Below are positions 1 to 11,745 of a stretch of 11,745 nt of DNA, piece by piece. This DNA is from a virus (taxonomy: Duplodnaviria > Heunggongvirae > Uroviricota > Caudoviricetes). Under the pieces are notes generated by a model. That model was given only the letters and a program-made list of their open reading frames with translations, was not told the DNA's origin and ran no database searches. A program made the translations under genes and the position numbers. Location: IMG/VR virus record IMGVR_UViG_2778261203_000004; one strand, given 5' to 3'. The first letter of the stretch is position 1, and every line of letters begins with the position of its first letter.

Positions 1-1236
1 CTACGATAACCGCGCATTCAACATGGCTATCTGTTCGTCGTTCATGTCATCAATCCACATACCGTAAATTTCATACACCATCTGCGCAGTTTCATGCCCC
101 ATTTGGCTGGCTATAAATGCCGGGTTCGCTCCTGCCGTCAACAGCCAGCAGGCAAAAGTATGCCGCGTATGGTACGGATTACGGCGGCGAATACCAGCAC
201 GTTTTACTGCTGCATTCCACCTTGCCCCCAAACTGCTTACCGAGTAATAAGGTTTTTGTTTTCCGTTACACACCCTGGGCATGAAAACAAAATGCAGTTT
301 TTGCTTTTCGGTTCTGCCGTACTCCCGATGATAAAAGGTGATTTCGCTTTTGCGATGATGCCCGGTCAGTTTGTATTGCTCCTTCAGTGCTTCAAGAGCA
401 GGCTGCAGTAGTGTTACTGTTCGGATCCCGGCATTTGTTTTTGGGGGGCCGAACATATCAAGTATCGTCAGGTTTCTTCTGACATTCACTATTCCCTTTT
501 CGAGATCCACATCCTCCCACGCCAGAGCTGCCAGTTCCCCGTGACGAAGTCCTGAGTAAACGGCAAATTTCCACAAGTTCTGGCTCTGTCCTTTTTCACT
601 TTCCATTAATGCATTGAATTCTGTTTTAGATAACGGATCAGGCTTTATTCTGTTTCGCTGTAATTTTTTTACTCCTTCAAATGGTTTGGTTGATATAAAT
701 CCCGACTGATACGCAAAACGCAACAGCGAACAGAGCAGGGCGATATAGTTATCAACTGTGCGCACGGTTCTTCCTTTTTTGTTGGATCTTGGATTATCCA
801 GGTAAAGCGTTTCTCCATGCAGCAGTTCATTCCGGTAGTTTAAGATATCGCTATAACGAATATGTGATATCGGGGTACTTTCACAAATTATTATTCTGAG
901 TATTTTTAATTGTGATTTCGTTTTCTTCATTGTGTTTGTTGTTAACTCTGTCTCTTTAATTTTTGTCCAGATATCACAAAGCTCTCCGAACGTTTTTATG
1001 ACTCTCGTTGTCACCATTTTTGCCCCAGTGCTGGACTGGGGAAAACGTCTTAAATACTCAAATTCACCGGAGTTTATTTCATGAACTATCAGCGCTCTTA
1101 AATTTCCGGCCTTTTTAATATTACTGTTTGTAATCTCCCAGCCTTTTAATGTTTCCCGACATCGTTTTCCTCGAAACATGAACCAGATGCGAATGTATCT
1201 ACCTCTAATCTCGACACCTGTTGGTAATTTAGACAT
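1..1236 (-). CDS. intR: Prophage integrase, tyrosine recombinase family (411 aa)
   Basis: Full 411 aa ORF; start ATG at 1234-1236 (complement), stop at 1-3. C-terminal region has the H-x-x-R and catalytic Tyr context typical of tyrosine recombinases (YHTRHTFA ... VYEIYG). N-terminus MSKLPTGVEIRGRYIRIWF recognised from memory as Rac IntR. Confidence 0.9.
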   Translation of the reverse strand: MSKLPTGVEIRGRYIRIWFMFRGKRCRETLKGWEITNSNIKKAGNLRALIVHEINSGEFEYLRRFPQSSTGAKMVTTRVIKTFGELCDIWTKIKETELTTNTMKKTKSQLKILRIIICESTPISHIRYSDILNYRNELLHGETLYLDNPRSNKKGRTVRTVDNYIALLCSLLRFAYQSGFISTKPFEGVKKLQRNRIKPDPLSKTEFNALMESEKGQSQNLWKFAVYSGLRHGELAALAWEDVDLEKGIVNVRRNLTILDMFGPPKTNAGIRTVTLLQPALEALKEQYKLTGHHRKSEITFYHREYGRTEKQKLHFVFMPRVCNGKQKPYYSVSSLGARWNAAVKRAGIRRRNPYHTRHTFACWLLTAGANPAFIASQMGHETAQMVYEIYGMWIDDMNDEQIAMLNARLS

Positions 1237-1237
1237 A

Positions 1238-1453
1238 TCATGAGTCTTTGATAAACTGATTTATCTTTGGATAGTTGTACCAGATAATCCCTCGTTTGCT
1301 GTCTGGCTTACCTAAAGGAGATACTCGTTTGAAGTGGAAGCCCTCCACCCAACAGTTCTGGCGGTATGCTTCAATTTGTCTGGCCCCCAGACCAGTGCGA
1401 AGCATCAGGCCGTATTCAACCATCCACTCTTCATTAAAGATTACTTGTGCCAT
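1238..1453 (-). CDS. xisR: Excisionase-like small DNA-binding protein (71 aa from ATG at 1453; track ORF extends to a TTG at 1477)
   Basis: Small ORF immediately upstream of the integrase; its stop (1238-1240) is 1 nt from the int start. ATG at 1453 is preceded by GAGGTGA at about 5 nt spacing. The track's upstream start is TTG (complement of caa at 1475-1477), which I consider less likely. Confidence 0.7.
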
Positions 1454-1531
1454 CGCATCACCTCTGGCAGGCGCCAATGTTAGACTGAAATTGACGCCCG
1501 ATGTTGATTATTAATAATCAGCTATGAAGTT

Positions 1532-1741
1532 TTAATTTGAATACAATGCAATTCTCGAGGACTGAAGTTTCTCGCAATTAAAATTTATCAGTTTTACTTT
1601 CTGCTCTCTGGAAACGCCTGCTTCTTTTTTACCTGAGAGCATTTTTTCGCATTCTGATTTCGTTAGTTTAGATTTTGAATATCTTGTCCAGTTAGTAGGA
1701 GTGCCACCTTCCTTTTCAATAGTGGCGGTAATTTTATACAT
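1532..1741 (-). CDS. ydaC: Small prophage protein of unknown function (69 aa)
   Basis: The track ORF 1532..1813 would overlap ralR by 80 nt. The internal ATG at 1741 (MYKITATIEKEGG...) is preceded by a strong GGAGGTG Shine-Dalgarno and gives 69 aa, with only an 8 nt overlap with the ralR 3' end. Confidence 0.65.
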   Translation of the reverse strand: MYKITATIEKEGGTPTNWTRYSKSKLTKSECEKMLSGKKEAGVSREQKVKLINFNCEKLQSSRIALYSN

Positions 1742-1928
1742 GAACACCTCCATTATTATTTCCAGTGGTTCGTTTATTCCATCTTTCGAGTGCTTCTTTT
1801 TCACTTCCACCATAACCGGTTCGGGATTCGCATCCGTTACACTTCGCTCGGTAATATCCTGAAATGGCTTTCACCGTTACTGATGGGCAACCACAAAATG
1901 GACATGGTTTAATATTGTCATATCTCAT
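1734..1928 (-). CDS. ralR: RalR/Lar-like restriction-alleviation protein, type I toxin (64 aa)
   Basis: Translation MRYDNIKPCPFCGCPSVTVKAISGYYRAKCNGCESRTGYGGSEKEALERWNKRTTGNNNGGVHV with two CxxC pairs. Start at ATG 1928 chosen over the upstream ATGs at 1940 and 1967, which lack a ribosome-binding site. Recognised from memory as Rac RalR. Confidence 0.75.
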   Translation of the reverse strand: MRYDNIKPCPFCGCPSVTVKAISGYYRAKCNGCESRTGYGGSEKEALERWNKRTTGNNNGGVHV

Positions 1929-1984
1929 AATTTTTCTCATAAAAAATATTTCAAGTTGGCGGTGCATTACACCGCCAGGCTGAA

Positions 1985-2794
1985 TTATTCCTCTGAATTA
2001 TCGATTACACTGTATTCCCCGGTTAATACAGAGGAATCTGCAGGATCGATTGTCAGTGGTTCCTTTTCATCCATTGATACTGCACGCTGGATCTCAATTG
2101 ATACGGGCAAATATTTGAACAGGCGACGAATAGCCGTTTTCTTTGCCATTTCTTCCCAGTGAGTTACCCACGGCCCGTTATTACCAGCTTTACTCAGGCT
2201 GCGCACCAGCTCAATCTGTTTGCGCGTCATAACTTCAAACTGAGTACCTCCGTCTTTCAGTCTTGCGACAGCATAGACGTGGGTAACCGGGGCATCTTCG
2301 TTTTCTCCCGGGCGGTGTATTAACTTTTCATCAAGGCCAAATTCGAAGCTAAACTCGTCACCTTCACGGACAACACGGGCTGACAGGCTGGCGATTTGAC
2401 CAGAACGGCGAGCCAGATCAATCATGCCGCGATAGCCAATGATTAGCTGAACGTTCTTTTTATCGCTCTTTTCGTTTTTATTACCAAAAGGCAGTAAATA
2501 TGCATGACCGAGGGCGCTACCTGGCTCAAGTCCGAGCTGTGAACACTGTACGATCGCACTGACAAAACTCATAGTGTCACAGTTTCCTAACGCCGGAACT
2601 TTACGAATTTCTGTGGTGGCGATACGGATCATACGTTCAGCCGTCATATGGCGTGGAAGAGCTGCTGCCAGTTGCTCTTTCATTGATGGCTGGTTAATAA
2701 AACTAATCACGTCGCTATTTTTAACTGCTGCTGGTGCACGGTTTCCCTGAGTTTTTTGCAGATCGGCTTTTGCGATTGGTGGTTGCTTAGTCAT
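1985..2794 (-). CDS. recT: RecT single-strand annealing protein (269 aa)
   Basis: Protein begins [24 protein letters not shown]. The ATG at 2794 is preceded by AAGGAA at about 9 nt, whereas the track's longer N-terminus (ATG at 2851) has none. The 3' end of recE overlaps it by 8 nt, suggesting translational coupling. Confidence 0.9.
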
Positions 2795-5387
2795 TTGCAT
2801 ATTCCTTAGCCCAGCGGGGCAGTGATAATGTCTTAATAGCTGGCCATTCATCGGTATTCAGGCAGTCAGACAGGGTTCGCAGATTGCGGTGATATTCCTG
2901 TTGACCTGCCAGTTTTGCTTCTTCGCCCATCATGAAAATTTCAACCGGATAACGTCCGCATTCAATAGTTGTGCTGGCAACCAGAAAAACGAAAGTTGGC
3001 TGCACTCCAAACTGTGCTTCATAACCGTCACTGTAGAATGCATCCTGAACGTGATAGCGGTAGTCGTAATAAGCGGTTTTGAATCGTTGAATATCCGCCG
3101 TAGTTTTCACGTCCATGATCCAGTGAAATTCAGGGATAATTTTGTCCGGACGGCACCGACACAAAATTCCTGTTTCAGGATCTTCCCAGTAAATTGATGA
3201 TTCAGCGTGTCCGGCGCTTTCAACAAGCCATTGCCCCAGCGGCAAAGCCATAACGCTTTGATACATGAGTTCAATTTTCCGGCCTTCTTCCGCAGTGATA
3301 ACCGTTTTTCCTGTGCTTGCGCATTCCATCAGAAACGCTTTCTCTTCTTCTTTTCCGGCGTTTGTACGGCGGTTAAATTCAGGTGCTACGATAAAGCGGT
3401 TACTGAATTCTTCCGGTTCAAGTACCCGGCAGTGGAAAGCAGTTCCTAAATCGAGCGTTTTTGTCTTTGTGGTGTCCACGGGGGCATTTTTACGCCACAA
3501 ATATAGTGCCGGAGTATCAGCAATGTCATCGAGCTGAGACTTACTGATACCGGGACCCGCGTGGTAATTCTCATTCGAAATTCCGTAATAAATACCTGGC
3601 TCTATGTCTTCTACGATTACGGGATCTGCGACTTCGCCAGTTTCATCACTGCAATCGCGATGCGGATCGCTGCCAGCATTCTCATTGTGCGGATGTTCAG
3701 CGCCTTCCATTTCCTCCGGATCATTTTCCTTAGCTTCAACCTGACTCTCTTCATCGAATGTTTCCTGGTATGTTGCGTCGCCCATCACCGCACCACAGTC
3801 AGGGCAGTTATCCCCGCCAGTCTGGCCGCAGGCATTGCAGGCTATTTCCGGTTCCTGTTGCACTACTGGCTCAGGTTGATTCATATCCGGGCTGGTTTTT
3901 TCCGTTTCTGGCTGGTTCTGGTACACACAATCGCGAGTCTGGATCCCCTTTACCCATTTCGGATCGTTCGGGTCGCTAATTCCGTCAACAAATTCATCAC
4001 GTGATGCAGCAAGCAATTTATCGGCATCGACAGGATTTTTTGATGGAATGTTTTTCCGGGCTTCATGGAGTTCTGCCCGCAGTTCCTGATATTTCGCATC
4101 AACAGAATTTACCTGTGACTGAGCATCCAGCGGCTGCGTGTCCTGATGATGTTCAGTTGCGTCCGGTTCCATTGTTTCAGCCTCTCCCTGTTCAACTGCC
4201 GTTGTTCCAGATGGTTGCGGTTTTTCTTCATCATCCTGTTTTCCTTCTTCTGTTACTCGCTGCGGCATCGGGGCAGAGGAGCGACCGCAGGCAATATCCA
4301 CGATTTCCGGATCAGGGTTGGCATGATCGGTTTCAGTCAGTACTTTGTTCAGATATTCAGTGACGTGCGCGGGGATGACCTCGATCCCAATTGGTGCTTC
4401 TTTTACGGACGCAACCACGATGGCGCGGGAATAATCCAGCCCGCCAGGCATGGTGATGAATTTGTCGCGGAAAACAGAAAAGGGCGGTTTATTTTCAGCG
4501 ATAATTTCCTCAATGCGTTTAGCGTGTGCCGGATGAAGGTTATAGATGTCCAGATCCATTGAACGGGCCAGTACGCCAGTGGCTACGTCGCGCGCCAGTG
4601 ACGTCAGATCGTGTACGAAACCTTCGCCGCGATCGGTGAGGTTTCCGCCGCCAGCATTAGCACCGGAAGCCGTGCGAGTGATGTGTGAAACACGATTACC
4701 CTTCATCCACTCTTTTGTCAGCAGTCCTCGATCGGTGTAGTCAGCGTTCAGGTATGCTTCGAAAAAAGCAGTTATCAGTCCCAGGTTTGAATTACCAGGA
4801 TTAGGGAAAACTTTGTCAGTGTCACGAACCAGTTTGTGGAGTTCGCGAATTTCCAGCGGGTCGAGCAGGCTGGTTTTGTGGGAAACAGCCAGGGCAGTAA
4901 CAGCCGGTAGTTCTTCAGCCCGAGCAATGTGTAATGCCTGGAGTCCGTCGCGTGAAACGTGCGTTACCGGTTTTTCGCTGCCGTGTTGAGCAAGCCAACG
5001 AATGGGCAGTTCCTGGCCAGAAATTGGGAGTAGCATATTCTCCTCAATCTCAGTCATGTCTTCGCCGTTGACGTTGGTATTGCCTTGATAGTGAGCGTTG
5101 TCTGGTGCTGCTCCCGGTTTTAGTTCCCATGTCATGGAGTCTTTGCTGAGTTGATAGCGTTCACTCCAGGTAAAATCGATCTCACCTTCAGCGGGCAGGT
5201 CATTAACGACAGGAAAATTCGTGGCAACAGCTTTAAAATAGCTGCTCAGTTTTTTACCTGACTTAACGATCAGGTAGTCCAGAGTGGCACAGGTCGATTC
5301 AAAATCGTTGCTTGCCCACAGGACGACGTCAGGTTCACCGGATGATTTTTTCGCTTTCCGTAACAGGAAGAGTGGTTTTGTGCTCAT
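2787..5387 (-). CDS. recE: RecE exonuclease VIII (866 aa)
   Basis: Single 866 aa ORF; GAGG Shine-Dalgarno upstream of ATG at 5387. Long acidic, low-complexity N-terminal and central region, then a C-terminal nuclease region. Directly upstream of recT with an 8 nt overlap. Confidence 0.9.
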
Positions 5388-5458
5388 TGTTTTTTAACCT
5401 CAACTCAGATTAAAATTCGTTTTGTTCAGTGAATGATCTTGCCGGATACACACTGTTC

Positions 5459-5483
5459 ATAGCCTGCGCCATACGCAGGCTAT
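5459..5483. other. Perfect 10 bp stem / 5 nt loop hairpin in the racC-recE intercistronic region
   Basis: ATAGCCTGCG ccata CGCAGGCTAT, every stem position pairs. On the + strand it is followed by TTTCTTTC; on the minus-strand (operon) transcript it sits between the racC stop (5489-5491) and the recE ribosome-binding site. Confidence 0.5.
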
Positions 5484-5488
5484 TTCTT

Positions 5489-5764
5489 TCAGATTTCACC
5501 TTTTAATTTCATTGCAATTAGAGTTGCCAGAAATTCGGCTTTTTTTTCTGCGGGCAGATTCTTTCCGATATGCACCAGGCACATTTTTTTGACACCTTCA
5601 TCAAGTGTTTTTACGTTGCCTGATGGACCATCGATATCAACCACAGTGAATGGGGTTTCTTTATTTTCTGTTTTAATTACGTAGCCAATGCGCTTTCCTT
5701 CCAGATTCACCTCGTGAACAATGTCATCGGTAGTTACAACAGTGGCTTCATAATTGGTAATCAT
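5489..5764 (-). CDS. racC: Small prophage protein RacC, function unknown (91 aa)
   Basis: 91 aa ORF with a perfect AAGGAG Shine-Dalgarno (complement of 5768-5773) upstream of ATG at 5764. Sequence MITNYEATVVTTDDIVHEV recognised from memory. Confidence 0.8.
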   Translation of the reverse strand: MITNYEATVVTTDDIVHEVNLEGKRIGYVIKTENKETPFTVVDIDGPSGNVKTLDEGVKKMCLVHIGKNLPAEKKAEFLATLIAMKLKGEI

Positions 5765-5837
5765 GTTTTTCTCCTTAATTAGGTTGAGCGAATACCTGCC
5801 ATTTCTGGCATAAATTCAGTTTCGAATAGTCAATTAA

Positions 5838-6008
5838 TTAAAGTTCATGTGCCATCTGGTCTTTTTCGGCACAAGCTTCACTGCAATATTTTCTCGGTTC
5901 GTCTTTTGATAAAATCCCGTGCATGAAGTGAAGCATTCTTTCAATAGCTTTGCTTTCTTCAACGTCTTTTTTGCAAAGGTGGTAAGCACATTTTATTTTC
6001 TTAGTCAT
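5838..6008 (-). CDS. ydaE: Small Cys4 putative zinc-binding protein (56 aa)
   Basis: Below the 60 aa cut-off of the ORF track. My hand translation of the complement from 6008 gives [56 protein letters not shown], stop at 5838-5840. Cys at positions 7, 12, 42 and 46. The ATG overlaps the kilR stop as ATGA; GGAG sits about 9 nt upstream. Confidence 0.7.
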   Translation of the reverse strand: MTKKIKCAYHLCKKDVEESKAIERMLHFMHGILSKDEPRKYCSEACAEKDQMAHEL

Positions 6009-6229
6009 CACCATGACTCCGCCTTTACAGGTAAACCATCACGACCGAGGAAGACTTTAATCATGCGGTCAGTAATGCATGTTTTTGTGGTCAGGTTACG
6101 AATATATAGTTTTCGCTTTTTAATATTGTTTGCCGAGGCAATATATGTCCGGCCTTCATGAAGAACATAATCGCCAGGAGTCACACACTGACGTGGTATT
6201 TCATCAGTTCCGAAGTGATGTGCAATCAT
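6008..6229 (-). CDS. kilR: KilR, prophage Kil-type cell-division inhibitor (73 aa)
   Basis: [46 protein letters not shown]...; ATG at 6229 preceded by TGGAGAT. The track ORF starts 4 codons further upstream without a ribosome-binding site. Confidence 0.8.
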
Positions 6230-6404
6230 AATTATCTCCATTTTTACAAATGAACTTTGTTGATGCGGTGCCTGGTGCCTCCAGGTGACTGCAACCAGTT
6301 AACAATTACAGTCGGCTTTCCCACCCAAACCAATAAGGACTAACATGACTTTTAACTGTGCCACGTGCGCTTAGCCGCATTCACCGCATCACAAAATTCA
6401 CTTT

Positions 6405-6452
6405 AAAAAGGGCGGACATCAGCCGAACTTCAAGAAAAAAACTGATGCCGCC
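6405..6452 (-). terminator. Candidate imperfect stem-loop followed by a T5 run on the minus strand, inside the kilR-sieB gap
   Basis: Minus-strand reading: GGCGGCATCAG - about 19 nt loop - CTGATGTCCGCC, then CTTTTTAAAG. The stem has one bulge and the loop is long for an intrinsic terminator, so this is weak. Confidence 0.25.
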
Positions 6453-6670
6453 AGGACTACACACAGCAATGTCGTTATTTACAACCGGAGGCGCACTCCC
6501 ACCATTTAAATTTAACAGACAAGACCGACTCTTTATGGATATCGGAAATGCGCCTTCGTGTTGTGCCCGGTTTTATTTCACCACCTCCGGGCTTCGGTGG
6601 TCTCGGCTATACCCCTACAGCGAGAGCTTGTGTTAACATTTCAATACCCTTACAGTTGAGAGTTATTGAT

Positions 6671-7159
6671 ATGTTGGATGTATTTACTCCATTGTTGAAA
6701 CTTTTTGCTAACGAGCCACTCGAAAGACTTATGTATACGATTATCATTTTTGGTCTCACTCTCTGGCTGATACCGAAAGAGTTTACTGTCGCATTCAATG
6801 CTTATACTGAAATACCTTGGCTCTTTCAGATTATCGTTTTTGCCTTTTCTTTCGTGGTCGCCATTTCCTTCTCAAGATTGCGAGCACATATTCAAAAGCA
6901 TTATTCATTACTGCCAGAGCAACGAGTATTGCTTCGTTTATCTGAGAAAGAAATCGCTGTATTTAAAGATTTCCTTAAAACAGGAAATCTTATTATCACT
7001 TCTCCTTGCCGTAACCCGGTTATGAAAAAATTAGAACGGAAGGGCATCATTCAACATCAGAGTGATAGCGCAAACTGTTCTTATTATCTCGTCACCGAAA
7101 AATACTCCCATTTTATGAAGTTATTCTGGAACAGCAGGAGTAGACGTTTTAATCGTTAG
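6671..7159 (+). CDS. sieB: SieB superinfection-exclusion membrane protein (162 aa)
   Basis: Start taken at ATG 6671 (MLDVFTPLLKLFANEPLERLMYTIIIFGLTLWLIP...), not the track's upstream ATG at 6548. Two hydrophobic helices (TIIIFGLTLWLI; WLFQIIVFAFSFVVAISF). It is the only + strand gene inside the leftward block. Confidence 0.8.
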   Translation: MLDVFTPLLKLFANEPLERLMYTIIIFGLTLWLIPKEFTVAFNAYTEIPWLFQIIVFAFSFVVAISFSRLRAHIQKHYSLLPEQRVLLRLSEKEIAVFKDFLKTGNLIITSPCRNPVMKKLERKGIIQHQSDSANCSYYLVTEKYSHFMKLFWNSRSRRFNR

Positions 7160-7311
7160 CTTACTGTGTGCTTCTCCAACCATCGGCGCGCACCAGTTTC
7201 GGTTTTAAATGTTTTGCTTTTGGTATACGTCATGGCAGTGAACGTTCCATCCTGGTTGGGGAACACGCCGCACACCAGGGATTCGTTGTTGCCGAGGTCG
7301 ATTTTTTGCAT
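7156..7311 (-). CDS. ydaF: Small hypothetical prophage protein (51 aa)
   Basis: Below the track cut-off. My translation of the complement from ATG 7311: MQKIDLGNNESLVCGVFPNQDGTFTAMTYTKSKTFKTETGARRWLEKHTVS, stop at 7156-7158. Converges on sieB with a 4 nt overlap. Weak ribosome-binding site. Confidence 0.55.
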   Translation of the reverse strand: MQKIDLGNNESLVCGVFPNQDGTFTAMTYTKSKTFKTETGARRWLEKHTVS

Positions 7312-7321
7312 TTTGCGAATC

Positions 7322-7456
7322 TCACATCTTGTTGCTACGTATAGCGACTTCTGCCTGCCAGAGATCCCAGTCGTTGCTGCGTAAAGCCTGCACAGCCTGG
7401 TTGTAAGTGATACCGCAACAATCCATCAAATACTGAACTACTTCGTAATGCACCAT
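7322..7456 (-). CDS. ydaG: Small hypothetical prophage protein (44 aa)
   Basis: Below the track cut-off. My translation from ATG 7456: MVHYEVVQYLMDCCGITYNQAVQALRSNDWDLWQAEVAIRSNKM, stop at 7322-7324. AAGGGGA about 12 nt upstream. Sits 10 nt upstream of ydaF. Confidence 0.55.
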   Translation of the reverse strand: MVHYEVVQYLMDCCGITYNQAVQALRSNDWDLWQAEVAIRSNKM

Positions 7457-7619
7457 CTTATCTATCCCCTTAACGCCGGGTGGCGGAACTAACTGCTGCA
7501 CTGCAAAATTTGAATCCCGCCGTCATGTTCATACGCCTCGGGCTGGCTACTTAACCCCTGACCACTGCCTGGTAACTCGAAGTATTGCCCGGCGTTCTGT
7601 GGGGCGGGGTGGGTTGGTA

Positions 7620-7672
7620 GGTATATAATGTACTTTGTGTTCATCATTGTAAAGTACTTTAAGTACATTTTA
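7620..7672. promoter_or_regulatory. AT-rich block with three GTACT-core sites; candidate leftward promoter/operator region
   Basis: ATGTACT at 7628-7634, palindrome AAGTACTT at 7652-7659, AGTACAT (ATGTACT on the minus strand) at 7662-7668; TATAAT at 7623-7628. Lies between the racR 3' end and the ydaG start. The same ATGTACT heptamer occurs twice in the racR-ydaS control region. Confidence 0.35.
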
Positions 7673-7743
7673 TGTATAAAAAAATGAGACGGGATAAAGT
7701 GAAGCACAAACCCGGAGGGGGACGCTACCGGATTTATGCTGGT

Positions 7744-8163
7744 TTAAGAGGCTTTTTGTTTTTTCTTTCGTGCTAACTCTTCGTAAATTGCATTGTACTT
7801 CTGTTTTTTCTCCTCAAGAGTTTTTAAAAGTTCATCTGTCTCACTGTCAGGGAGCTCGTCCAGAAGGTCAATGATGATTTTTTGTCTTGGATTTAACTCC
7901 TGATAGAAACGTATCTGTCCACTTTCTTCTGTATCCTCTCCCAAAAGATAGGTTGGTGTTGTTCCAATGAGTGTTGCTAATTCCCTTAATTTCTCTCGGC
8001 GAGGAATTGTTTCACCATTAAACCATTTGCTAACCGCTTTTGGTGTTAATTTCATTCGACGGGCAATTTCTGCCTGCCTTCCATGTTGTTCATAACCAGC
8101 GTTTTCACAGGCTAGCGCAAGCCTACTGGCGAACTCTTTACGCGCTTTATCTTCATGAACCAT
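7744..8163 (-). CDS. racR: RacR, CI-like prophage repressor with helix-turn-helix (139 aa in this sequence)
   Basis: Helix-turn-helix segment RQAEIARRMKLTPKAVSKWFNGETIP. No ATG, GTG or TTG lies in frame between 8163 and the upstream stop at 8218-8220, so the ATG at 8163 is the only start. No obvious Shine-Dalgarno, so it may be translated from a leaderless or short-leader mRNA. Confidence 0.85.
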   Translation of the reverse strand: MVHEDKARKEFASRLALACENAGYEQHGRQAEIARRMKLTPKAVSKWFNGETIPRREKLRELATLIGTTPTYLLGEDTEESGQIRFYQELNPRQKIIIDLLDELPDSETDELLKTLEEKKQKYNAIYEELARKKKQKAS

Positions 8164-8242
8164 AAGTTCAATGATATTCGCTCTTGAATGTACTGTCAGT
8201 TCTGTTATAGCATGTACTCAAAGTTCACATTGTGAGGGTGAT
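8164..8242. promoter_or_regulatory. Divergent racR / ydaS promoter-operator region (79 bp)
   Basis: ATGTACT at 8188-8194 and 8212-8218; AAGTTCA at 8164-8170 and 8221-8227; inverted repeat TTCAA-N12-TTGAA at 8166-8187. A candidate rightward promoter is TTGAAT (8184-8189), 16 bp spacer, TATAGC (8206-8211); the heptamers overlap its -35 and start region. GAGGGTGAT ribosome-binding site precedes the ydaS ATG at 8243. Confidence 0.5.
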
Positions 8243-8497
8243 ATGAACCAGAAAACACTTGAAGATGTAATCAAAACTGTTCGCGTTTCTGTTGTGGCCG
8301 ACGTTTGTGGTGTCAGCCAAAGAGCAATCTACAAATGGATGGATAACGGAAAATTGCCTCGCACAGAATATACCGGCGAAACAAATTACGCTGAAAAAAT
8401 CGCTCATGCATCAAACGGATTATTTTCTGCCGATGCAATTTTAACTATTGGCAGAAATAAAACTACTACGAAAAAGCTGATGGGAGTTGATTCATGA
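8243..8497 (+). CDS. ydaS: YdaS, Cro-like helix-turn-helix protein (84 aa from ATG 8243; track ORF starts at 8171)
   Basis: Helix-turn-helix VADVCGVSQRAIYKWMDNGKLP. ATG 8243 has a GAGGG Shine-Dalgarno; the ATG at 8171 would leave only 7 bp between divergent genes and has no ribosome-binding site. The stop overlaps the ydaT start as ATGA. Confidence 0.7.
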   Translation: MNQKTLEDVIKTVRVSVVADVCGVSQRAIYKWMDNGKLPRTEYTGETNYAEKIAHASNGLFSADAILTIGRNKTTTKKLMGVDS

Positions 8498-8916
8498 AAA
8501 TCAAGCATGAGCACATCGAATCAGTGTTGTTAGCCCTGGCAGCCGAAAAAGGGCAGGCGTGGGTCGCTAACGCAATTACTGAAGAATATCTGCGCCAGGG
8601 GGGCGGCGAATTGCCCCTGGTACCAGGCAAGGACTGGAACAATCAGCAGAATATCTATCATCGTTGGTTGAAAGGTGAAACGAATGCGCAAAGGGAAAAA
8701 ATTCAGAAACTGATCCCTGCGGTTCTGGCAATTCTTCCTCGCGAGCTGCGTCACCGACTCTGCATCTTCGATACCCTGGAACGCCGTGCATTACTGGCGG
8801 CACAGGATGCACTGAGTACGGCAATTGATGCGCATGATGATGCAGTCCAGGCCGTTTACCGTAAAGCACATTTCAGCGGCGGCGGTTCTCCTAGCGATTC
8901 TGTCGTAGTGCATTGA
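8494..8916 (+). CDS. ydaT: YdaT, CII-like / toxic prophage protein (140 aa)
   Basis: 140 aa ORF, GGGAG Shine-Dalgarno at 8480-8484, start overlapping the ydaS stop. Sequence MKIKHEHIESVLLALAAEKGQAWVANAITEEYL recognised from memory. Confidence 0.8.
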   Translation: MKIKHEHIESVLLALAAEKGQAWVANAITEEYLRQGGGELPLVPGKDWNNQQNIYHRWLKGETNAQREKIQKLIPAVLAILPRELRHRLCIFDTLERRALLAAQDALSTAIDAHDDAVQAVYRKAHFSGGGSPSDSVVVH

Positions 8917-8928
8917 TTGAAATTAATC

Positions 8929-8952
8929 GTACCGAACTGTTTTGTTCGGTAT
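8929..8952 (+). other. Stem-loop immediately downstream of ydaT (8 bp stem, 6 nt loop)
   Basis: TACCGAAC tgtttt GTTCGGTA. No clear U-tract follows, so it is not a convincing intrinsic terminator; it may be a processing or attenuation structure ahead of ydaU. Confidence 0.3.
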
Positions 8953-8960
8953 CAGTTAAA

Positions 8961-8981
8961 TGTAACGCTGCGAGCGTTACA
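8961..8981. repeat. Palindrome TGTAACGCT-gcg-AGCGTTACA, copy 1 (intergenic, 13 bp upstream of the ydaU ATG)
   Basis: Perfect 9 bp inverted arms with a 3 bp centre; it overlaps the ydaU ribosome-binding-site region. Confidence 0.7.
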
Positions 8982-8993
8982 AGGTGAAAACAA

Positions 8994-9782
8994 ATGGCTT
9001 CAAACTGGATAAAGCTCGAAGTTATTACGCCGGATAAGCCGGAAATATTCAGGCTTGCTGAGATTCTGAATATTGATCCAGATGCCGCATTAGGGAAAGT
9101 CATTCGCTTCTGGGCATGGGCGGATCAACAAATGATAGACGGTAACGCAGAGTGTAACGCTCGCGGCGTTACAAAAAGTGCAATAGATCGCATCACTTTT
9201 ATGGCTGGTTTTGCTGATGCGTTAATTCAGGTTGGATGGCTGGTCGAAACTAATGGTGTGTTGTCGCTTCCTAACTTTGAGCGCCATAACGGGAAAAGCT
9301 CTAAAAAACGGGCGGTTACAAACGAGAGAGTAACAAAAATACGAGAACTGAAACGAAAAGGTAACGCTGCCAGCGTTACAAAAACGGATCAAAAAGCGTT
9401 ACCAGAGGAAGAGAAAGAGGAAGATATAAATACTTATCTCCCCCTAAATCCCCCTCGCCAAAAACGAGCGTCTAAAAAATTCGAACCGGAGGCTATCGAG
9501 CTGCCTGACTGGTTGCCGGAAACACTCTGGCATGAGTGGGTTCAGTTCAGGCAGGCATTGCGAAAACCGATTCGAACGGAGCAGGGCGCTAACGGGGCGA
9601 TACGGGAGCTGGAAAAATTCCGCCAGCAGGGTTTTTCACCTGAGCAGGTGATTCGACACAGCATCGCCAACGAATACCAGGGCTTGTTCGCGCCGAAAGG
9701 TGTTCGACCTGAGACGTTACTCCGACAGGTTAACACCGTCTCGTTACCGGATAGTGCGATCCCGCCAGGCTTCAGGGGGTAA
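8994..9782 (+). CDS. ydaU: YdaU, putative replication-initiator (lambda O-like role) protein (262 aa)
   Basis: ATG 8994 preceded by AAGGTGA; an in-frame stop at 8985-8987 excludes a longer N-terminus. Position directly upstream of the DnaC-like loader, and the internal palindromes, support an initiator role. Confidence 0.8.
   Translation: MASNWIKLEVITPDKPEIFRLAEILNIDPDAALGKVIRFWAWADQQMIDGNAECNARGVTKSAIDRITFMAGFADALIQVGWLVETNGVLSLPNFERHNGKSSKKRAVTNERVTKIRELKRKGNAASVTKTDQKALPEEEKEEDINTYLPLNPPRQKRASKKFEPEAIELPDWLPETLWHEWVQFRQALRKPIRTEQGANGAIRELEKFRQQGFSPEQVIRHSIANEYQGLFAPKGVRPETLLRQVNTVSLPDSAIPPGFRG
9153..9173. repeat. Palindrome TGTAACGC-tcgcg-GCGTTACA, copy 2 (inside ydaU)
   Basis: 8 bp inverted arms; an extra half-site GTAACGC lies at 9142-9148. 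Encodes the peptide ECNARGVTK. Confidence 0.7.
9361..9380. repeat. Palindrome GTAACGCTG-c-CAGCGTTAC(A), copy 3 (inside ydaU)
   Basis: Perfect 9 bp arms. Further half-sites at 9313-9320 (CGGTTACA), 9330-9335 (GTAACA) and 9386-9392 (GCGTTAC). Encodes KGNAASVTK. Followed by an A-rich, purine-rich tract at 9400-9480. Confidence 0.7.
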
Positions 9783-9788
9783 CTGACC

Positions 9789-10535
9789 ATGAAAAATATT
9801 GCGACAGGCGACGTTCTTGAACGTATCCGCAGACTGGCCCCGTCACATGTAACCGCGCCATTCAAGACGGTAGCGGAGTGGCGCGAGTGGCAACTTTCCG
9901 AAGGCCAGAAACGTTGTGAGGAGATCAACCGTCAGAATCGTCAGTTGCGGGTGGAAAAAATTCTGAATCGCTCTGGCATCCAGCCATTGCACCGCAAATG
10001 CTCGTTTTCGAATTACCAGGTGCAGAACGAAGGGCAGCGATACGCGTTGAGTCAGGCGAAATCCATCGCTGATGAACTGATGACCGGGTGTACAAATTTT
10101 GCGTTCAGCGGAAAACCTGGTACCGGGAAGAACCACTTAGCGGCAGCTATCGGGAATCGCCTGCTGAAAGACGGTCAGACAGTGATTGTGGTTACCGTGG
10201 CTGATGTTATGAGTGCCCTGCACGCCAGCTATGACGATGGGCAGTCAGGCGAAAAATTTTTGCGGGAACTGTGCGAAGTGGATCTGCTGGTTCTTGATGA
10301 AATTGGCATTCAGCGCGAGACGAAAAACGAGCAGGTGGTACTGCACCAGATTGTTGATCGCCGGACAGCGTCGATGCGCAGCGTGGGGATGCTGACAAAC
10401 CTGAACTATGAGGCCATGAAAACATTGCTCGGCGAGCGGATTATGGATCGCATGACCATGAACGGCGGGCGATGGGTGAATTTTAACTGGGAGAGCTGGC
10501 GTCCGAATGTCGTCCAGCCAGGAATTGCGAAGTAA
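9789..10535 (+). CDS. ydaV: YdaV, DnaC/IstB-like AAA+ helicase-loader ATPase (248 aa)
   Basis: Walker [16 protein letters not shown] and Walker B LLVLDEIG motifs; GGGGG Shine-Dalgarno 6-10 nt upstream of the ATG. Confidence 0.85.
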
Positions 10536-10557
10536 TTTTTACCGGGAGAAAAATTTA

Positions 10558-11319
10558 ATGGAGACTGTTTTTGACGCACTGAAAGCAATGGGAAAAGCCA
10601 CATCCATAGAACTTGCTGCGCGACTTGATATCAGTCGTGAAGAAGTGCTGAACGAACTATGGGAACTGAAAAAGGCTGGTTTTGTTGATAAAAGCGCGTA
10701 CACCTGGCGTGTGGCTGATAACAATGTTCAGCAGGAACAGCCAGCGCAGGCAGAACTGCCGGAAGAAATCACCACAGCAACAGTAGCGAAAATCTCAGAG
10801 TGCGATTTAACCGCGACGATTGAACAACGAGGACCACAAACGGCTGATGAGCTGGCTACATTGTTTGGTACCACATCACGCAAAGTGGCTTCAACGCTGG
10901 CAATGGCAATCAGCAAAGGTCGTCTGATTCGCGTAAATCAGGGCGGTAAATTTCGTTACTGCATACCGGGCGATAATTTACCAGCAGAGCCGAAAGCAGC
11001 ATCGGTAGCGGAAACTGATGGTAAGGCCTTTCCTCAGACCGCAGGTGTTGCGTTACCAGTACAGGAGGCTGCAACACAGGAAGATATTAAAACAGAAACT
11101 GTGGCGGACATTGTGCAGTCGCTGCCATCGTTTACTGAAACGCGAGCGGATGACCTGGTTTTACCATCACTGCATATGGCAAACCGCGAACTGCGTCGGG
11201 CGAAAAATCATGTCCAGAAGTGGGAGCGTGTCTGCGCCGCGCTGCGTGAGTTGAACAAGCACAGGGATATTGTACGACAGATTACTGATTCTTCCCGCCA
11301 TGTTGCATCGGAAAAGTGA
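10558..11319 (+). CDS. ydaW: Hypothetical prophage protein at the ydaW position (253 aa from ATG 10558; track ORF 270 aa from 10507)
   Basis: ATG 10558 is preceded by GGGAGA at about 9 nt, whereas ATG 10507 would overlap ydaV by 29 nt. The symbol is assigned by position after ydaV; from memory the K-12 copy is truncated while this ORF is full length, so the assignment is tentative. Confidence 0.55.
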
Positions 11320-11334
11320 TTGCCGGAGGCACCT

Positions 11335-11745
11335 ATGGCAAAAGTATTTACACCAGAAGAGCGAGAAAAAATTAAAGGACAGGTTGTTGAACTTGTACCT
11401 CTGAGCGGTCGCGAGACGTTACGGGCTCTGGAGGCTAAAACCGGTGCATCAAGGTATTACATAAGCACTCTCGCCAGAGAACTAGTCGCCAGTGGTGATG
11501 TTTACAATTCAGGCTACGGATTATTCCCGTCTGAGCAGGCGCGTAAAGACTGGCAAAACGCCCGCAAAAAACTATCAAGGACAAAGGTGAAGAAACCGGT
11601 TGTGGTTGATCCTGACCTTATTGGTAAGCCCGAAGAACTGGATACTTCGGCACGTAATGCCGGGGCTCTAACCCGCCGCCGCGAAATTCGTGATGCTGCA
11701 ACTCTGCTACGTCTGGGGCTGGCTTACGGCCCCGGGGGGATGTCA
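11335..11745 (+). CDS. Hypothetical protein, 3' partial (runs off the window end; at least 137 aa)
   Basis: ATG 11335 preceded by GGAGG (11324-11328); open to the window end (MAKVFTPEEREKIKGQVVELVPLSGRETLRALEAKTGASRYYISTLAREL...). Absent from the ORF track because no stop is reached. I do not recognise it. Confidence 0.5.
   Translation, partial: MAKVFTPEEREKIKGQVVELVPLSGRETLRALEAKTGASRYYISTLARELVASGDVYNSGYGLFPSEQARKDWQNARKKLSRTKVKKPVVVDPDLIGKPEELDTSARNAGALTRRREIRDAATLLRLGLAYGPGGMS

What the first reader, a model, noticed from the sequence alone, without database searches (positions are those of the whole stretch)
6671..7456. sieB embedded antiparallel in the leftward block and converging on two tiny ORFs, ydaF and ydaG
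sieB is on the + strand while its neighbours (kilR to the left, ydaF and ydaG to the right) are on the - strand, and its stop overlaps the ydaF stop by 4 nt. Convergent overlapping transcription implies mutual interference or antisense regulation. ydaF (51 aa) and ydaG (44 aa) have no known function to my knowledge; ydaG contains a CC pair. Small genes next to an exclusion gene and the repressor are typical positions for accessory anti-phage or regulatory factors, which is speculation here.
Basis: partly seen in the sequence, partly recalled or inferred. Interest (0 to 1): 0.45.

Follow-up and report, generated by a model that had tools for sequence, protein, structure and literature searches.

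The report
Rac prophage sieB exclusion cassette
This is the standard lambdoid-phage layout in which the exclusion gene sieB sits backwards inside the repressor-controlled early-left operon, here of an E. coli Rac-type prophage; it is largely known, but it carries an uncatalogued conserved antisense-RNA element.

Summary
sieB (6671-7159, +) converges on ydaF (7156-7311, -) with a 4-nt overlap, and ydaG (7322-7456, -) lies upstream of ydaF. The window is a Rac-type E. coli prophage.

The layout is not peculiar. Lambda and P22 also have sieB antiparallel in the pL operon, tail-to-tail with the first early gene (N or gene 24). In 60 related loci the stop-to-stop gap is mostly -8 to +21 nt.

ydaG and ydaF are real genes (pN/pS 0.20 and 0.11). 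They are the first genes of a repressor-controlled pL-like operon. DUF1391 also occurs without sieB, in Qin, in phages Tritos and OS31, and in sieB-less Rac alleles. It is therefore tied to the repressor and pL position, not to sieB.

sieB is a discrete 554-bp cassette (6626-7179). Its upstream region matches the P22/lambda PsieB promoter and sas antisense-RNA region. That region has two ACCCYTACAG repeats and, on the leftward transcript, a hairpin plus an H-type pseudoknot with compensatory changes. An internal Met at the P22 Esc position is kept in all 32 family variants.

Likely mechanism: a P22-type antisense switch. Antisense control is plausible, but it acts at the sieB 5' end, not at the stop overlap. 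Novelty is low to moderate.

The parts
7620..7673 (-). Putative early-left (pL-type) promoter with two operator sites (OL). The -35 is TTTACA at 7653-7648 and the -10 is CATTAT at 7630-7625. The operators are at 7628-7642 and 7652-7668.
   Evidence: The promoter scan found this site. The motif AWGTACTNNNNGTWC occurs at 4 sites in the window, against 0.01 expected: a pair here and a pair at 8188-8226 next to the repressor/cro divergent promoters, each pair 24 bp apart. Identity to K-12, which has a different immunity region, stops at 7619, just downstream of this promoter.
7457..7617 (-). Leader of about 160 nt for the early-left transcript. The Shine-Dalgarno sequence AAGGGGA lies 9 nt before the ydaG ATG.
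   Evidence: Read from the sequence. No boxA-like site was found in the leader. In-frame stop codons occur in the stretch between GTG 7501 and ATG 7456 in several alleles.
7322..7456 (-). ydaG, 44 aa, predicted three-helix bundle. First gene of the early-left operon.
   Evidence: pN/pS is 0.20 and the annotated frame is the best of six. It matches PHROG phrog_14709 over 44 of 44 positions. The Pfam UBA_4 score is 24.1 bits against a cut-off of 21.8. The AlphaFold2 model has three helices at pLDDT 74. Homologues were found only in Escherichia.
7156..7311 (-). ydaF, 51 aa, DUF1391, predicted beta-beta-beta-alpha fold. Second gene of the early-left operon.
   Evidence: Pfam PF07151 E=1.9e-28. pN/pS is 0.11. 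It is 87.5% identical in DNA to Qin ydfA. The AlphaFold2 model has pLDDT 80. The family sits immediately downstream of the repressor in Qin, Tritos and OS31.
6671..7159 (+). sieB, superinfection exclusion protein B, 162 aa.
   Evidence: Pfam PF14163 E=1.5e-31 and PHROG phrog_6399 E=5e-70. It is 28% identical to lambda SieB and 19% identical to P22 SieB. pN/pS is 0.18.
6731..6733 (+). In-frame internal ATG (Met21) at the position of the P22 Esc start.
   Evidence: The P22 esc CDS starts at codon 25 of sieB. Rac M21 aligns within 2 residues of it. All 32 unique SieB-family proteins keep a Met within 3 columns of this position.
6610..6670 (+). PsieB-like promoter and 5' UTR. Repeat 1 is ACCCCTACAG at 6611-6620. 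An extended -10, TGTTAACAT, is at 6631-6639. Repeat 2, ACCCTTACAG at 6646-6655, starts at the inferred transcription start (A6646). The Shine-Dalgarno sequence is GAGAG.
   Evidence: The region aligns to the annotated P22 sieB promoter and RNA start site. The two repeats are found against 0.04 expected.
6549..6675 (-). Inferred sas-like antisense RNA, a segment of the leftward transcript. It is complementary to the sieB start codon, Shine-Dalgarno sequence, 5' UTR and promoter.
   Evidence: The 127-nt P22 sas RNA maps to the equivalent interval of P22. Rac, P22 and lambda align across this region. The existence of this RNA in Rac is inferred, not shown.
6565..6624 (-). Structured core of the antisense RNA. 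Hairpin S0 (6602-6624) carries CUGUAGGGGUA in its loop. The H-type pseudoknot spans 6565-6601: [ACCACC]gaa(GCCCGG)a[GGUGGU]gaaauaaaa(CCGGGC).
   Evidence: The topology is kept in 16 of 17 sequence variants, and 0 of 200 shuffles reach the observed score in four of the five variants tested, Rac and lambda among them (4/200 for L112). On a hand-registered alignment, 85% of cells pair against 30-37% when the partners are slid. Four pairs change on both sides, for example U-A, C-G and G-C at one position. The covariation score is 0.145 against 0.068, with 0 of 500 shuffles reaching it. G-U wobbles appear only when the - strand is read. No Rfam family covers the element.
6626..7179 (.). The sieB cassette as a presence/absence unit. 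It holds the -10 element, repeat 2, sieB and the last 8 codons of ydaF.
   Evidence: In five sieB-less Rac-type prophages, homology to the window ends exactly at 6625 and resumes at 7180. An unrelated 46-nt segment stands in place of these 554 nt.
6405..6502 (-). KilS sRNA (K-12 b4833), here recognised as a DicF paralogue. It lies downstream of the sas-like element on the same leftward transcript and upstream of kilR (6008-6229).
   Evidence: K-12 annotation. Verified by northern blot in PMC8175672. The Rfam DicF hit at 6410-6465 scores 39.1 bits, E=1e-5, below the gathering score of 48. The interval 6415-6249 is 80% identical to the Qin dicF-dicB interval.

Best explanation
The interval is the promoter-proximal part of the early-left (pL-type) operon of a Rac-family lambdoid prophage. 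A separately transcribed, lysogen-expressed superinfection-exclusion cassette (sieB) is embedded in it in the opposite orientation. This is the same architecture as in lambda (N / sieB) and P22 (gene 24 / sieB-esc-sas).

The leftward unit starts at a promoter that overlaps two operator sites (7620-7673). It then runs through ydaG, ydaF, the antisense of sieB, a conserved structured RNA element, the KilS (DicF-like) sRNA, and kilR with the genes beyond it.

sieB has its own P22-like promoter. The inferred transcription start is at A6646.

Proposed mechanism, by homology with P22. In the lysogen the immunity repressor keeps the leftward promoter off. SieB is then made and aborts heterologous phages. 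When the leftward promoter fires, either on induction or from an incoming phage with the same cassette, the transcript contains a sas-like antisense segment (about 6675 to 6549). This segment covers the sieB start codon, Shine-Dalgarno sequence and 5' UTR. It ends in a hairpin plus an H-type pseudoknot that probably stabilise it or define its 3' end. The antisense blocks initiation at Met1 but leaves the internal Met21 (Esc-like) start available, so the phage neutralises its own exclusion protein. Full-length convergent transcription across 489 bp adds transcriptional interference.

Shown here: the gene order, the homology of the leader to the P22/lambda sas region, the repeats, covariation favouring the leftward strand, the conserved internal Met, the cassette boundaries, the operator sites, and purifying selection on all three ORFs.

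Inferred: that the Rac antisense RNA is actually made and processed, that Met21 is used as a start, and the switch itself.

YdaG and YdaF are genuine small early proteins that occupy the slot N has in lambda. Their function remains unassigned. YdaF has a small beta3-alpha fold and YdaG is a UBA-like three-helix bundle.
For: Lambda and P22 have sieB on the opposite strand to pL and abutting N or gene 24. P22 annotates esc, PsieB and the sieB RNA start.

Among 60 loci that share the leader motif, the gene converging on the cargo is N-family in 29 and YdaF in 18.

The Rac leader aligns to the P22/lambda PsieB/sas region. P22 sas maps to the antisense of the sieB start codon, UTR and promoter.

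The two repeats occur against 0.04 expected.

The pseudoknot and hairpin are conserved with compensatory changes, and wobble pairs appear only on the - strand.

The internal Met is kept in 32 of 32 variants.

The operator motif occurs at 4 sites against 0.01 expected, at OL and OR. A promoter-like site overlaps OL.

No intrinsic terminator-like site was found anywhere in 6200-8300 on either strand.

In K-12, ydaF and ydaG are co-induced with kilR, ydaE and racC when RacR is antagonised. sieB-ydaF is a core excludon.

The Qin dicBF operon is a documented homologous transcription unit that starts at a PL-like promoter upstream of ydfA.
Against: There is no direct RNA evidence for a sas-like species in Rac.

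Nested-only folding of 6540-6680 (-) is no more stable than shuffled sequence (z = -0.65).

The structural alignment was registered by hand to fit the structure. The variants represent only about 6-8 independent lineages, all selected with an exact 16-mer. One arm of S0 therefore could not vary.

Repeat 1 and the pseudoknot persist in alleles that have lost sieB. The element may therefore have a role unrelated to sieB, or it may be a relic.

KilS was reported to have its own promoter, so induction of kilR does not strictly prove read-through across sieB.

Met21 has no obvious Shine-Dalgarno sequence.

The original P22 paper could not be read. Details of the sas mechanism rest on reviews and on memory.
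Confidence: 0.7

Rival explanations
1. sieB, ydaF and ydaG form one functional anti-phage module, in which the two small proteins are accessory exclusion or regulatory factors for SieB.
For: The three genes are adjacent and sieB overlaps ydaF by 4 nt. The three co-occur in about 1,238 E. coli genomes. The small proteins are real and under purifying selection. Their functions are unknown.
Against: DUF1391 occurs without sieB in Qin, Tritos, OS31 and sieB-less Rac alleles. SieB-family genes occur with N rather than ydaF in lambda, P22 and 29 other loci. ydaF and ydaG are on the other strand, under the operator-controlled promoter, and are co-induced with kilR rather than sieB. Neither matches a PADLOC model. 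The last 8 codons of ydaF differ between alleles with and without sieB, which shows the overlap is a recombination joint.
Confidence: 0.08
2. The arrangement has no regulatory meaning. The conserved leader is only a promoter plus a short homology 'linker' that lets lambdoid phages swap cargo genes, and the convergent overlap is an incidental product of mosaic recombination.
For: Sequence conservation stops abruptly on both sides of the roughly 100-nt head. The cargo behind it varies: three SieB subtypes and two unrelated families. The deletion/insertion junction lies exactly at the end of the 16-nt motif. The head survives without cargo.
Against: Compensatory base changes occur in two interleaved stems. 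Wobble pairs work only on the leftward strand. This points to selection on an RNA made from the strand opposite to the promoter's own transcript. P22 sas is an experimentally described RNA from this very region.
Confidence: 0.15
3. YdaG and/or YdaF replace N. They would be early regulators, for example antiterminators or nucleic-acid-binding factors, needed for the leftward transcript to read through antisense sieB into kilS, kilR and recET.
For: They occupy the N slot, as the first genes after the operators and converging on the sieB cassette. No N homologue is visible in this early-left region. The YdaF model is a beta3-alpha fold whose best, non-significant matches include AP2-type DNA-binding domains and dsRNA-binding domains. 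Silencing of kilR in K-12 depends on Rho and NusG (PMC4150792 and PMC5793797).
Confidence: 0.07

Closest known systems
Phage P22 sieB-esc-sas system (Ranade and Poteete 1993, cited from reviews and from memory)
   Same: SieB-family protein. Antiparallel position in the pL operon, converging on the first early gene. Homologous promoter and leader with the two ACCCYTACAG repeats. Homologous antisense region. Internal in-frame Met at the Esc position.
   Different: Rac SieB is only 19% identical to P22 SieB. The convergent partner is ydaF (DUF1391), not the antiterminator gene 24. The stops overlap by 4 nt instead of being 20 nt apart. The pseudoknot stems differ by compensatory changes. No experimental data exist for Rac.
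Phage lambda N / sieB (git) arrangement
   Same: sieB is on the + strand and ends exactly where N ends (35036/35037). The leader is nearly identical to that of P22 and recognisably homologous to that of Rac.
   Different: Lambda has N, nutL and ral around sieB. Rac has ydaG and ydaF upstream and KilS-kilR downstream.
Qin prophage dicBF operon (dicBp-ydfA-ydfB-ydfC-dicF-dicB)
   Same: A repressor-controlled PL-like promoter. A DUF1391 gene near the start of the operon (ydfA is 87.5% identical in DNA to ydaF). A DicF-type sRNA processed from the transcript upstream of a cell-division inhibitor. The sRNA-to-inhibitor interval is 80% identical.
   Different: Qin has ydfB and ydfC where Rac has the antiparallel sieB cassette. 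Qin lacks ydaG. The division inhibitor is DicB, not KilR.
Excludons (convergent overlapping transcription units)
   Same: sieB-ydaF is listed in the E. coli MG1655 core excludome from RNA-seq.
   Different: Here the overlap is not just between 3' UTRs. The leftward unit is expected to cover the whole sieB gene, and a dedicated structured antisense element lies at the sieB 5' end.

Membership tests
SieB superinfection exclusion family (Pfam PF14163 / phrog_6399) | Sequence match to the family profile above the curated threshold | tested here: met
   PF14163 scores 109.4 bits against a cut-off of 26. phrog_6399 E=5e-70.
SieB superinfection exclusion family (Pfam PF14163 / phrog_6399) | Abortive exclusion of superinfecting heterologous phage | not testable with these tools
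   This needs plating assays.
P22-type sieB-esc-sas antisense switch | sieB antiparallel within the early-left operon, converging on the first early gene(s) | tested here: met
P22-type sieB-esc-sas antisense switch | Leader, promoter and antisense region homologous to P22 sas | tested here: met
   Alignment. Mapping of sas. The repeats. Conserved structure with covariation.
P22-type sieB-esc-sas antisense switch | In-frame internal start giving a truncated Esc polypeptide | tested here: inconclusive
   A Met is conserved at the equivalent position in 32 of 32 variants. Its use as a start codon was not shown, and no clear Shine-Dalgarno sequence precedes it.
P22-type sieB-esc-sas antisense switch | The antisense RNA is actually produced from the leftward transcript and switches translation | not testable with these tools
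   Only indirect evidence exists: the excludon listing in K-12 and the co-induction of genes on both sides of sieB.
DUF1391 (Pfam PF07151), YdaF/YdfA | Profile match above the threshold | tested here: met
   98.3 bits against a cut-off of 27.3.
UBA-like domain (Pfam PF14555), for YdaG | Profile match above the threshold and a three-helix bundle fold | tested here: inconclusive
   The score of 24.1 bits only just exceeds the cut-off of 21.8. The model is a three-helix bundle at pLDDT 74. The top Foldseek hits are UBA domains, but E is at or above 2.
Lambda N-type antitermination system | An arginine-rich RNA-binding protein in the first pL gene, and nut (boxA/boxB) sites in the leader | tested here: not met
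   There is no N-family match for YdaG or YdaF, no arginine-rich motif and no boxA-like sequence in 7457-7617.
DicF sRNA (Rfam RF00039), for KilS | Covariance-model score at or above the gathering threshold | tested here: inconclusive
   The score is 39.1 bits against a gathering score of 48, E=1e-5, with the full model length matched. The 3' half and the downstream flank are conserved with Qin.
Excludon | Overlapping transcripts from convergent neighbouring genes seen by RNA-seq | tested here: met
   From the literature only: sieB-ydaF is in the MG1655 core excludome (PMC12288877). RNase III dependence was not tested.

The most novel reading that the evidence does not exclude
The roughly 100-nt head of the cassette comprises two CUGUAGGGGU motifs, a hairpin that presents one of them, and an A-rich-loop H-type pseudoknot, all on the leftward transcript. 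It may be a portable, uncatalogued structured-RNA module. It would mark a cargo hot spot in lambdoid early-left operons and have a function of its own, for example kissing-loop nucleation on the 5' end of the cargo mRNA, or processing or stabilisation of the pL transcript upstream of KilS-kilR. It serves at least three unrelated cargo families and persists where the cargo has been lost.
Probability: 0.3. Interest if true: 0.6.

Novelty: new member of a known kind. Interest (0 to 1): 0.33.

Why it matters
The finding as stated is ordinary. The genes are annotated in E. coli K-12. The antiparallel sieB layout is the lambdoid norm. The convergent transcripts are already listed as an excludon.

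What the analysis adds is an explanation for why the layout is conserved. The exclusion gene sits where the phage's own early-left transcript automatically produces an antisense RNA against it. That gives a simple self/non-self switch.

The analysis also yields testable items:
- a structured RNA element with covariation that has no Rfam family;
- a precise definition of sieB as a 554-bp swappable cassette;
- recognition that KilS is a DicF paralogue, so that the Rac and Qin early-left operons are homologous;
- the placement of DUF1391 and YdaG as the first early-left genes in lambdoid phages that lack N, which is a reasonable place to look for a new early regulator.

Tried and rejected
1. No intrinsic terminator lies between or around the convergent genes: none was found in 6200-8300.
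2. Rho loading on the antisense-sieB RNA is not supported. No C-rich, G-poor 78-nt window exists and C/G is 0.86. The idea was dropped. In K-12 the described Rho terminator, trac, lies inside racR.
3. A nut/boxA site in the leader was not found.
4. MFE folding of the sas-like region gives z = -0.65, which is not informative because the structure is a pseudoknot.
5. Rfam hits nothing in the sas region of the window, lambda or P22.
6. PADLOC gives no hit for SieB, YdaF, YdaG or the alternative cargo proteins.
7. Searches of PDB sequences gave only a 20-residue, E=0.033 similarity of YdaF to phage head decoration proteins. This explains a spurious 'head-DNA stabilization protein D' label in some phage records. 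YdaG gave nothing.
8. Fold searches gave no significant match for either small protein.
10. The original P22 sas paper is not held.
11. No ribosome-profiling or proteomic evidence for YdaF or YdaG turned up in the searchable literature.
12. The MAFFT alignment of the head put the 5-bp and 6-bp versions of one stem out of register. A hand-registered, N-padded alignment was used instead.
Full report
**Observation.**
The coordinates are right.
- sieB is 6671-7159 (+), 162 aa.
- ydaF is 7156-7311 (-), 51 aa.
- ydaG is 7322-7456 (-), 44 aa.
- The two stop codons share the sequence TTAG, which gives a 4-nt overlap.

Pfam identifies SieB (PF14163, E=1.5e-31) and DUF1391 (PF07151, E=1.9e-28). YdaG just passes the UBA_4 threshold, at 24.1 bits against 21.8.

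The window is a Rac-type prophage of E. coli. It is 99.8% identical to K-12 MG1655 Rac over positions 1-7619 and 99.7% identical to strain M18 over 1-11625. Its immunity region differs from that of K-12 from 7620 onward.

All three ORFs behave as coding sequences. Across 20-25 nucleotide alleles, pN/pS is 0.18 (sieB), 0.11 (ydaF) and 0.20 (ydaG). In each case the annotated frame is the best of the six.

The 59-aa version of ydaG that starts at GTG 7501 is used by PGAP in some genomes. It is an over-extension. Several alleles carry in-frame stops between that GTG and the ATG, while the Shine-Dalgarno sequence and the ATG stay conserved.

**The layout is canonical.**
- In lambda, sieB (34482-35036, +) ends exactly where N (35037-35438, -) ends.
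- In P22, sieB (+) ends 20 nt from gene 24 (-). The record annotates the internal esc start at codon 25, the sieB promoter and the sieB RNA start.
- Sixty loci share the sieB leader motif. In 29 of them the gene converging on the cargo is an N-family antiterminator. In 18 it is YdaF, and 17 of those have the same -4 overlap. In the N and YdaF groups stop-to-stop distances run from -8 to +21 nt, with one at +56.

The 4-nt overlap is therefore one value within an ordinary range.

**ydaG and ydaF belong to the repressor-controlled early-left operon, not to sieB.**

A promoter-like site lies 160 nt upstream of ydaG, with -35 at 7653-7648 and -10 at 7630-7625 on the - strand. Two copies of AWGTACTNNNNGTWC overlap it. 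Two further copies, with the same 24-bp spacing, lie between the repressor gene (7744-8163, -) and the cro-like gene. That makes 4 sites against 0.01 expected. The motif was derived from these same sites, so the count is supportive rather than independent.

Identity with K-12, which has a different immunity type, ends at 7619, immediately downstream of this promoter.

DUF1391 is the first gene after the repressor in three elements that lack sieB:
- Qin (dicA, then ydfA-ydfB-ydfC-dicF-dicB);
- phage Tritos;
- Serratia phage OS31.

For Qin, the literature shows a PL-like promoter upstream of ydfA and a polycistronic transcript from which DicF is processed (PMC10448788).

In K-12, antagonising RacR induces ydaF, ydaG, kilR, ydaE, racC and ydaC 40- to 70-fold. 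sieB is not listed among the induced genes (PMC6765115 and PMC11014345).

**sieB is a discrete cassette.**
Five Rac-type prophages lack sieB. Two of them have the same immunity region as this window. In all five, homology runs up to exactly 6625 and resumes at 7180, and 46 unrelated nucleotides replace 554.
- The left junction is the last base of the 16-mer TACCCCTACAGCGAGA.
- The right junction is 8 codons before the end of ydaF.

This explains why Rac-type YdaF ends in EKHTVS while Qin-type proteins end in ERNSGE or ARNTD. The stop overlap is thus a by-product of the cassette's right end.

Comparison with Qin agrees with this. ydaF matches ydfA at 87.5% DNA identity, and 6415-6249 matches the dicF-to-dicB interval at 80%. 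The segment between them is unrelated.

**The conserved element is at the 5' end of sieB.**

The region upstream of Rac sieB aligns with the nearly identical P22 and lambda sieB upstream regions. It contains two direct repeats:
- ACCCCTACAG at 6611-6620;
- ACCCTTACAG at 6646-6655.

Two matches were found against 0.04 expected.

By alignment with the annotated P22 promoter and RNA start, the Rac features are placed as follows:
- repeat 1 overlaps the -35 region;
- TGTTAACAT (6631-6639) is an extended -10;
- A6646, the first base of repeat 2, is the inferred transcription start.

The P22 sas RNA is reported as 127 nt in PMC13397905. It maps to the - strand from the sieB start codon back through the UTR and promoter. 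The equivalent Rac interval is about 6675 to 6549.

**A structured RNA on the leftward strand.**
An IMG/VR scan with the 16-mer returned 80 loci. They yielded 51 distinct sequences over a 200-nt interval; 17 distinct variants of the ~64-nt core were searched for the pseudoknot, and 20 rows were used in the pair count. Read on the - strand, the motif is followed by two structures.
- Hairpin S0 (CUCG...CGAG) presents CUGUAGGGGUA in its loop.
- An H-type pseudoknot follows it.
  - Rac: [ACCACC]gaa(GCCCGG)a[GGUGGU]gaaauaaaa(CCGGGC).
  - Lambda and P22: [AACCAC]cga(GCCUG)au[GUGGUU]aaaaga(CAGGC).
  - Other variants use GCCGGG/CCCGGC, CGCCUG/CAGGCG, CCACG/CGUGG and UCACG/CGUGA.

Sixteen of 17 variants keep this topology. 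In four of the five variants tested, Rac and lambda among them, 0 of 200 shuffles reach the observed score (4/200 for L112).

A pair count was made on a hand-registered alignment.
- 85% of cells pair, against 30-37% when the 3' partners are slid.
- Four pairs change on both sides. One position shows U-A in 11 sequences, C-G in 6 and G-C in 3.
- The covariation score is 0.145 against 0.068, and 0 of 500 shuffles reach it.

In seven variants one position of a stem pairs only as a G-U wobble, and only when the - strand is read (three variants in the pseudoknot stems, four in S0). On the + strand those positions would be A-C mismatches. The selected RNA is therefore the leftward transcript, which is the sas orientation.

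Three caveats apply.
- The alignment was fitted to the structure.
- The variants come from perhaps 6-8 lineages.
- All were selected with an exact 16-mer.

Rfam has no family for this element in the window, in lambda or in P22. No paper in the searchable library mentions the motif.

**The Esc-like start.**
Rac SieB has an in-frame Met21 (6731-6733), just before the first hydrophobic stretch. It aligns within two residues of the P22 Esc start. All 32 distinct SieB-family cargo proteins retrieved keep a Met within three columns of this position. This is positional evidence only.

**Mechanism proposed.**
- In the lysogen the leftward promoter is repressed and sieB is transcribed from its own promoter. 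With no terminator-like site nearby, the transcript reads into the antisense of ydaF and ydaG. This fits the K-12 excludon listing.
- When the leftward promoter fires, its transcript crosses sieB in antisense and includes the sas-like segment, which covers the sieB ribosome-binding site.
- By analogy with P22, this shuts off full-length SieB while leaving the Esc-like product. The P22 mechanism is taken from reviews (PMC12197685, PMC7067206) and from memory of Ranade and Poteete 1993.
- The pseudoknot probably protects or defines the 3' end of the antisense RNA.
- One speculative detail concerns the duplication of the motif. The repeat-1 copy, held in the S0 loop, is complementary to the first 10 nt of the sieB mRNA (repeat 2). 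In Rac this pairing includes one wobble. It could nucleate the pairing between the two RNAs.

**What the small proteins are.**
- YdaG homologues were found only in Escherichia. The AlphaFold2 model is a three-helix bundle at pLDDT 74. Its best Foldseek hits are UBA domains, but none is significant.
- Neither protein has an arginine-rich motif and the leader has no boxA. They are therefore not N-type antiterminators by the tested criteria.
- Their position, in the slot that N occupies in lambda, makes an early regulatory role the most reasonable guess.

**Verdict.**
- The general idea of antisense control is supported by homology. The control point is the sieB 5' end, and the mechanism is the known P22 type.
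- The idea of a sieB-ydaF-ydaG anti-phage module is not supported.
- The locus is best filed as a new, uncharacterised member of the sieB/sas kind.
- The conserved pseudoknotted head and its variable cargo are the only part with real discovery potential.

Noticed in passing
window 6405-6502 (-), Rfam hit 6410-6465: The K-12 sRNA KilS, in the kilR 5' UTR, looks like a paralogue of DicF. The Rfam RF00039 hit scores 39.1 bits, below the gathering score of 48, with E=1e-5. The terminator hairpin and the downstream flank are conserved with Qin dicF-dicB, and 6415-6249 is 80% identical. The Rac and Qin early-left operons are therefore homologous: a DUF1391 gene, then an sRNA, then a division inhibitor.
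   Followed up: partly
window 6626-7179; loci L102, L126, L140, L154, L167: sieB shows a presence/absence polymorphism among Rac-type prophages. The left junction is precise, at the end of the 16-nt motif. The right junction is inside the last 8 codons of ydaF. In the sieB-less alleles 46 nt replace 554 nt.
   Followed up: yes
loci L107, L108, L122, L125, L162; L089, L106: Two other cargo families sit behind the same conserved head, in place of sieB. One is a 163-169 aa protein (phrog_1244, unknown function; a coiled-coil region plus a Cys-rich C-terminus). The other is an 80-83 aa protein with no match in Pfam, PHROGs or PADLOC. They may be alternative exclusion genes.
   Followed up: partly
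window 7628-7668 and 8188-8226: There are two pairs of operator-like sites, AWGTACTNNNNGTWC, each pair 24 bp apart. One pair is at the putative early-left promoter and the other is between the repressor and cro-like genes. The immunity region at 7620-9525 differs from that of K-12 Rac: the repressor here is a 139-aa HTH protein, not the 158-aa RacR.
   Followed up: partly
window 7457-7501 (-): RefSeq/PGAP calls ydaG as 59 aa from GTG 7501 in strain M18 and others. In-frame stop codons in several alleles show that the 44-aa form starting at the ATG is correct.
   Followed up: yes
window 7156-7311 (-); phage records ON470614, ON470616, ON470595 and others: ydaF homologues are labelled 'head-DNA stabilization protein D' in several deposited phage genomes. 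The only basis found is a 20-residue similarity, E=0.033, to head decoration proteins (PDB 1td0). The label is almost certainly wrong.
   Followed up: yes
window 6222-6408 (-): There is a weak Rfam match to STnc100 (RF02076): 35.5 bits against a gathering score of 47, E=8.6e-5. It covers the interval between KilS and the kilR start.
   Followed up: no
window 1557-1735 (+): The RalA antitoxin sRNA (RF02694, 225 bits) is present opposite rcbA/ralR, as in K-12.
   Followed up: no
window 6720-6747 (+): A promoter-like match (TCGAAA-16-TATCAT) lies inside sieB, just upstream of and overlapping the Met21 codon. It might give a transcript that encodes only a shorter product, or it may be a chance match.
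   Followed up: no
locus L001 12061-14401 (strain M18, beyond the window end): In the closest complete genome, the anti-phage genes iteA and iteS follow the replication genes of the same prophage. This shows that the element carries other defence cargo elsewhere.
   Followed up: no
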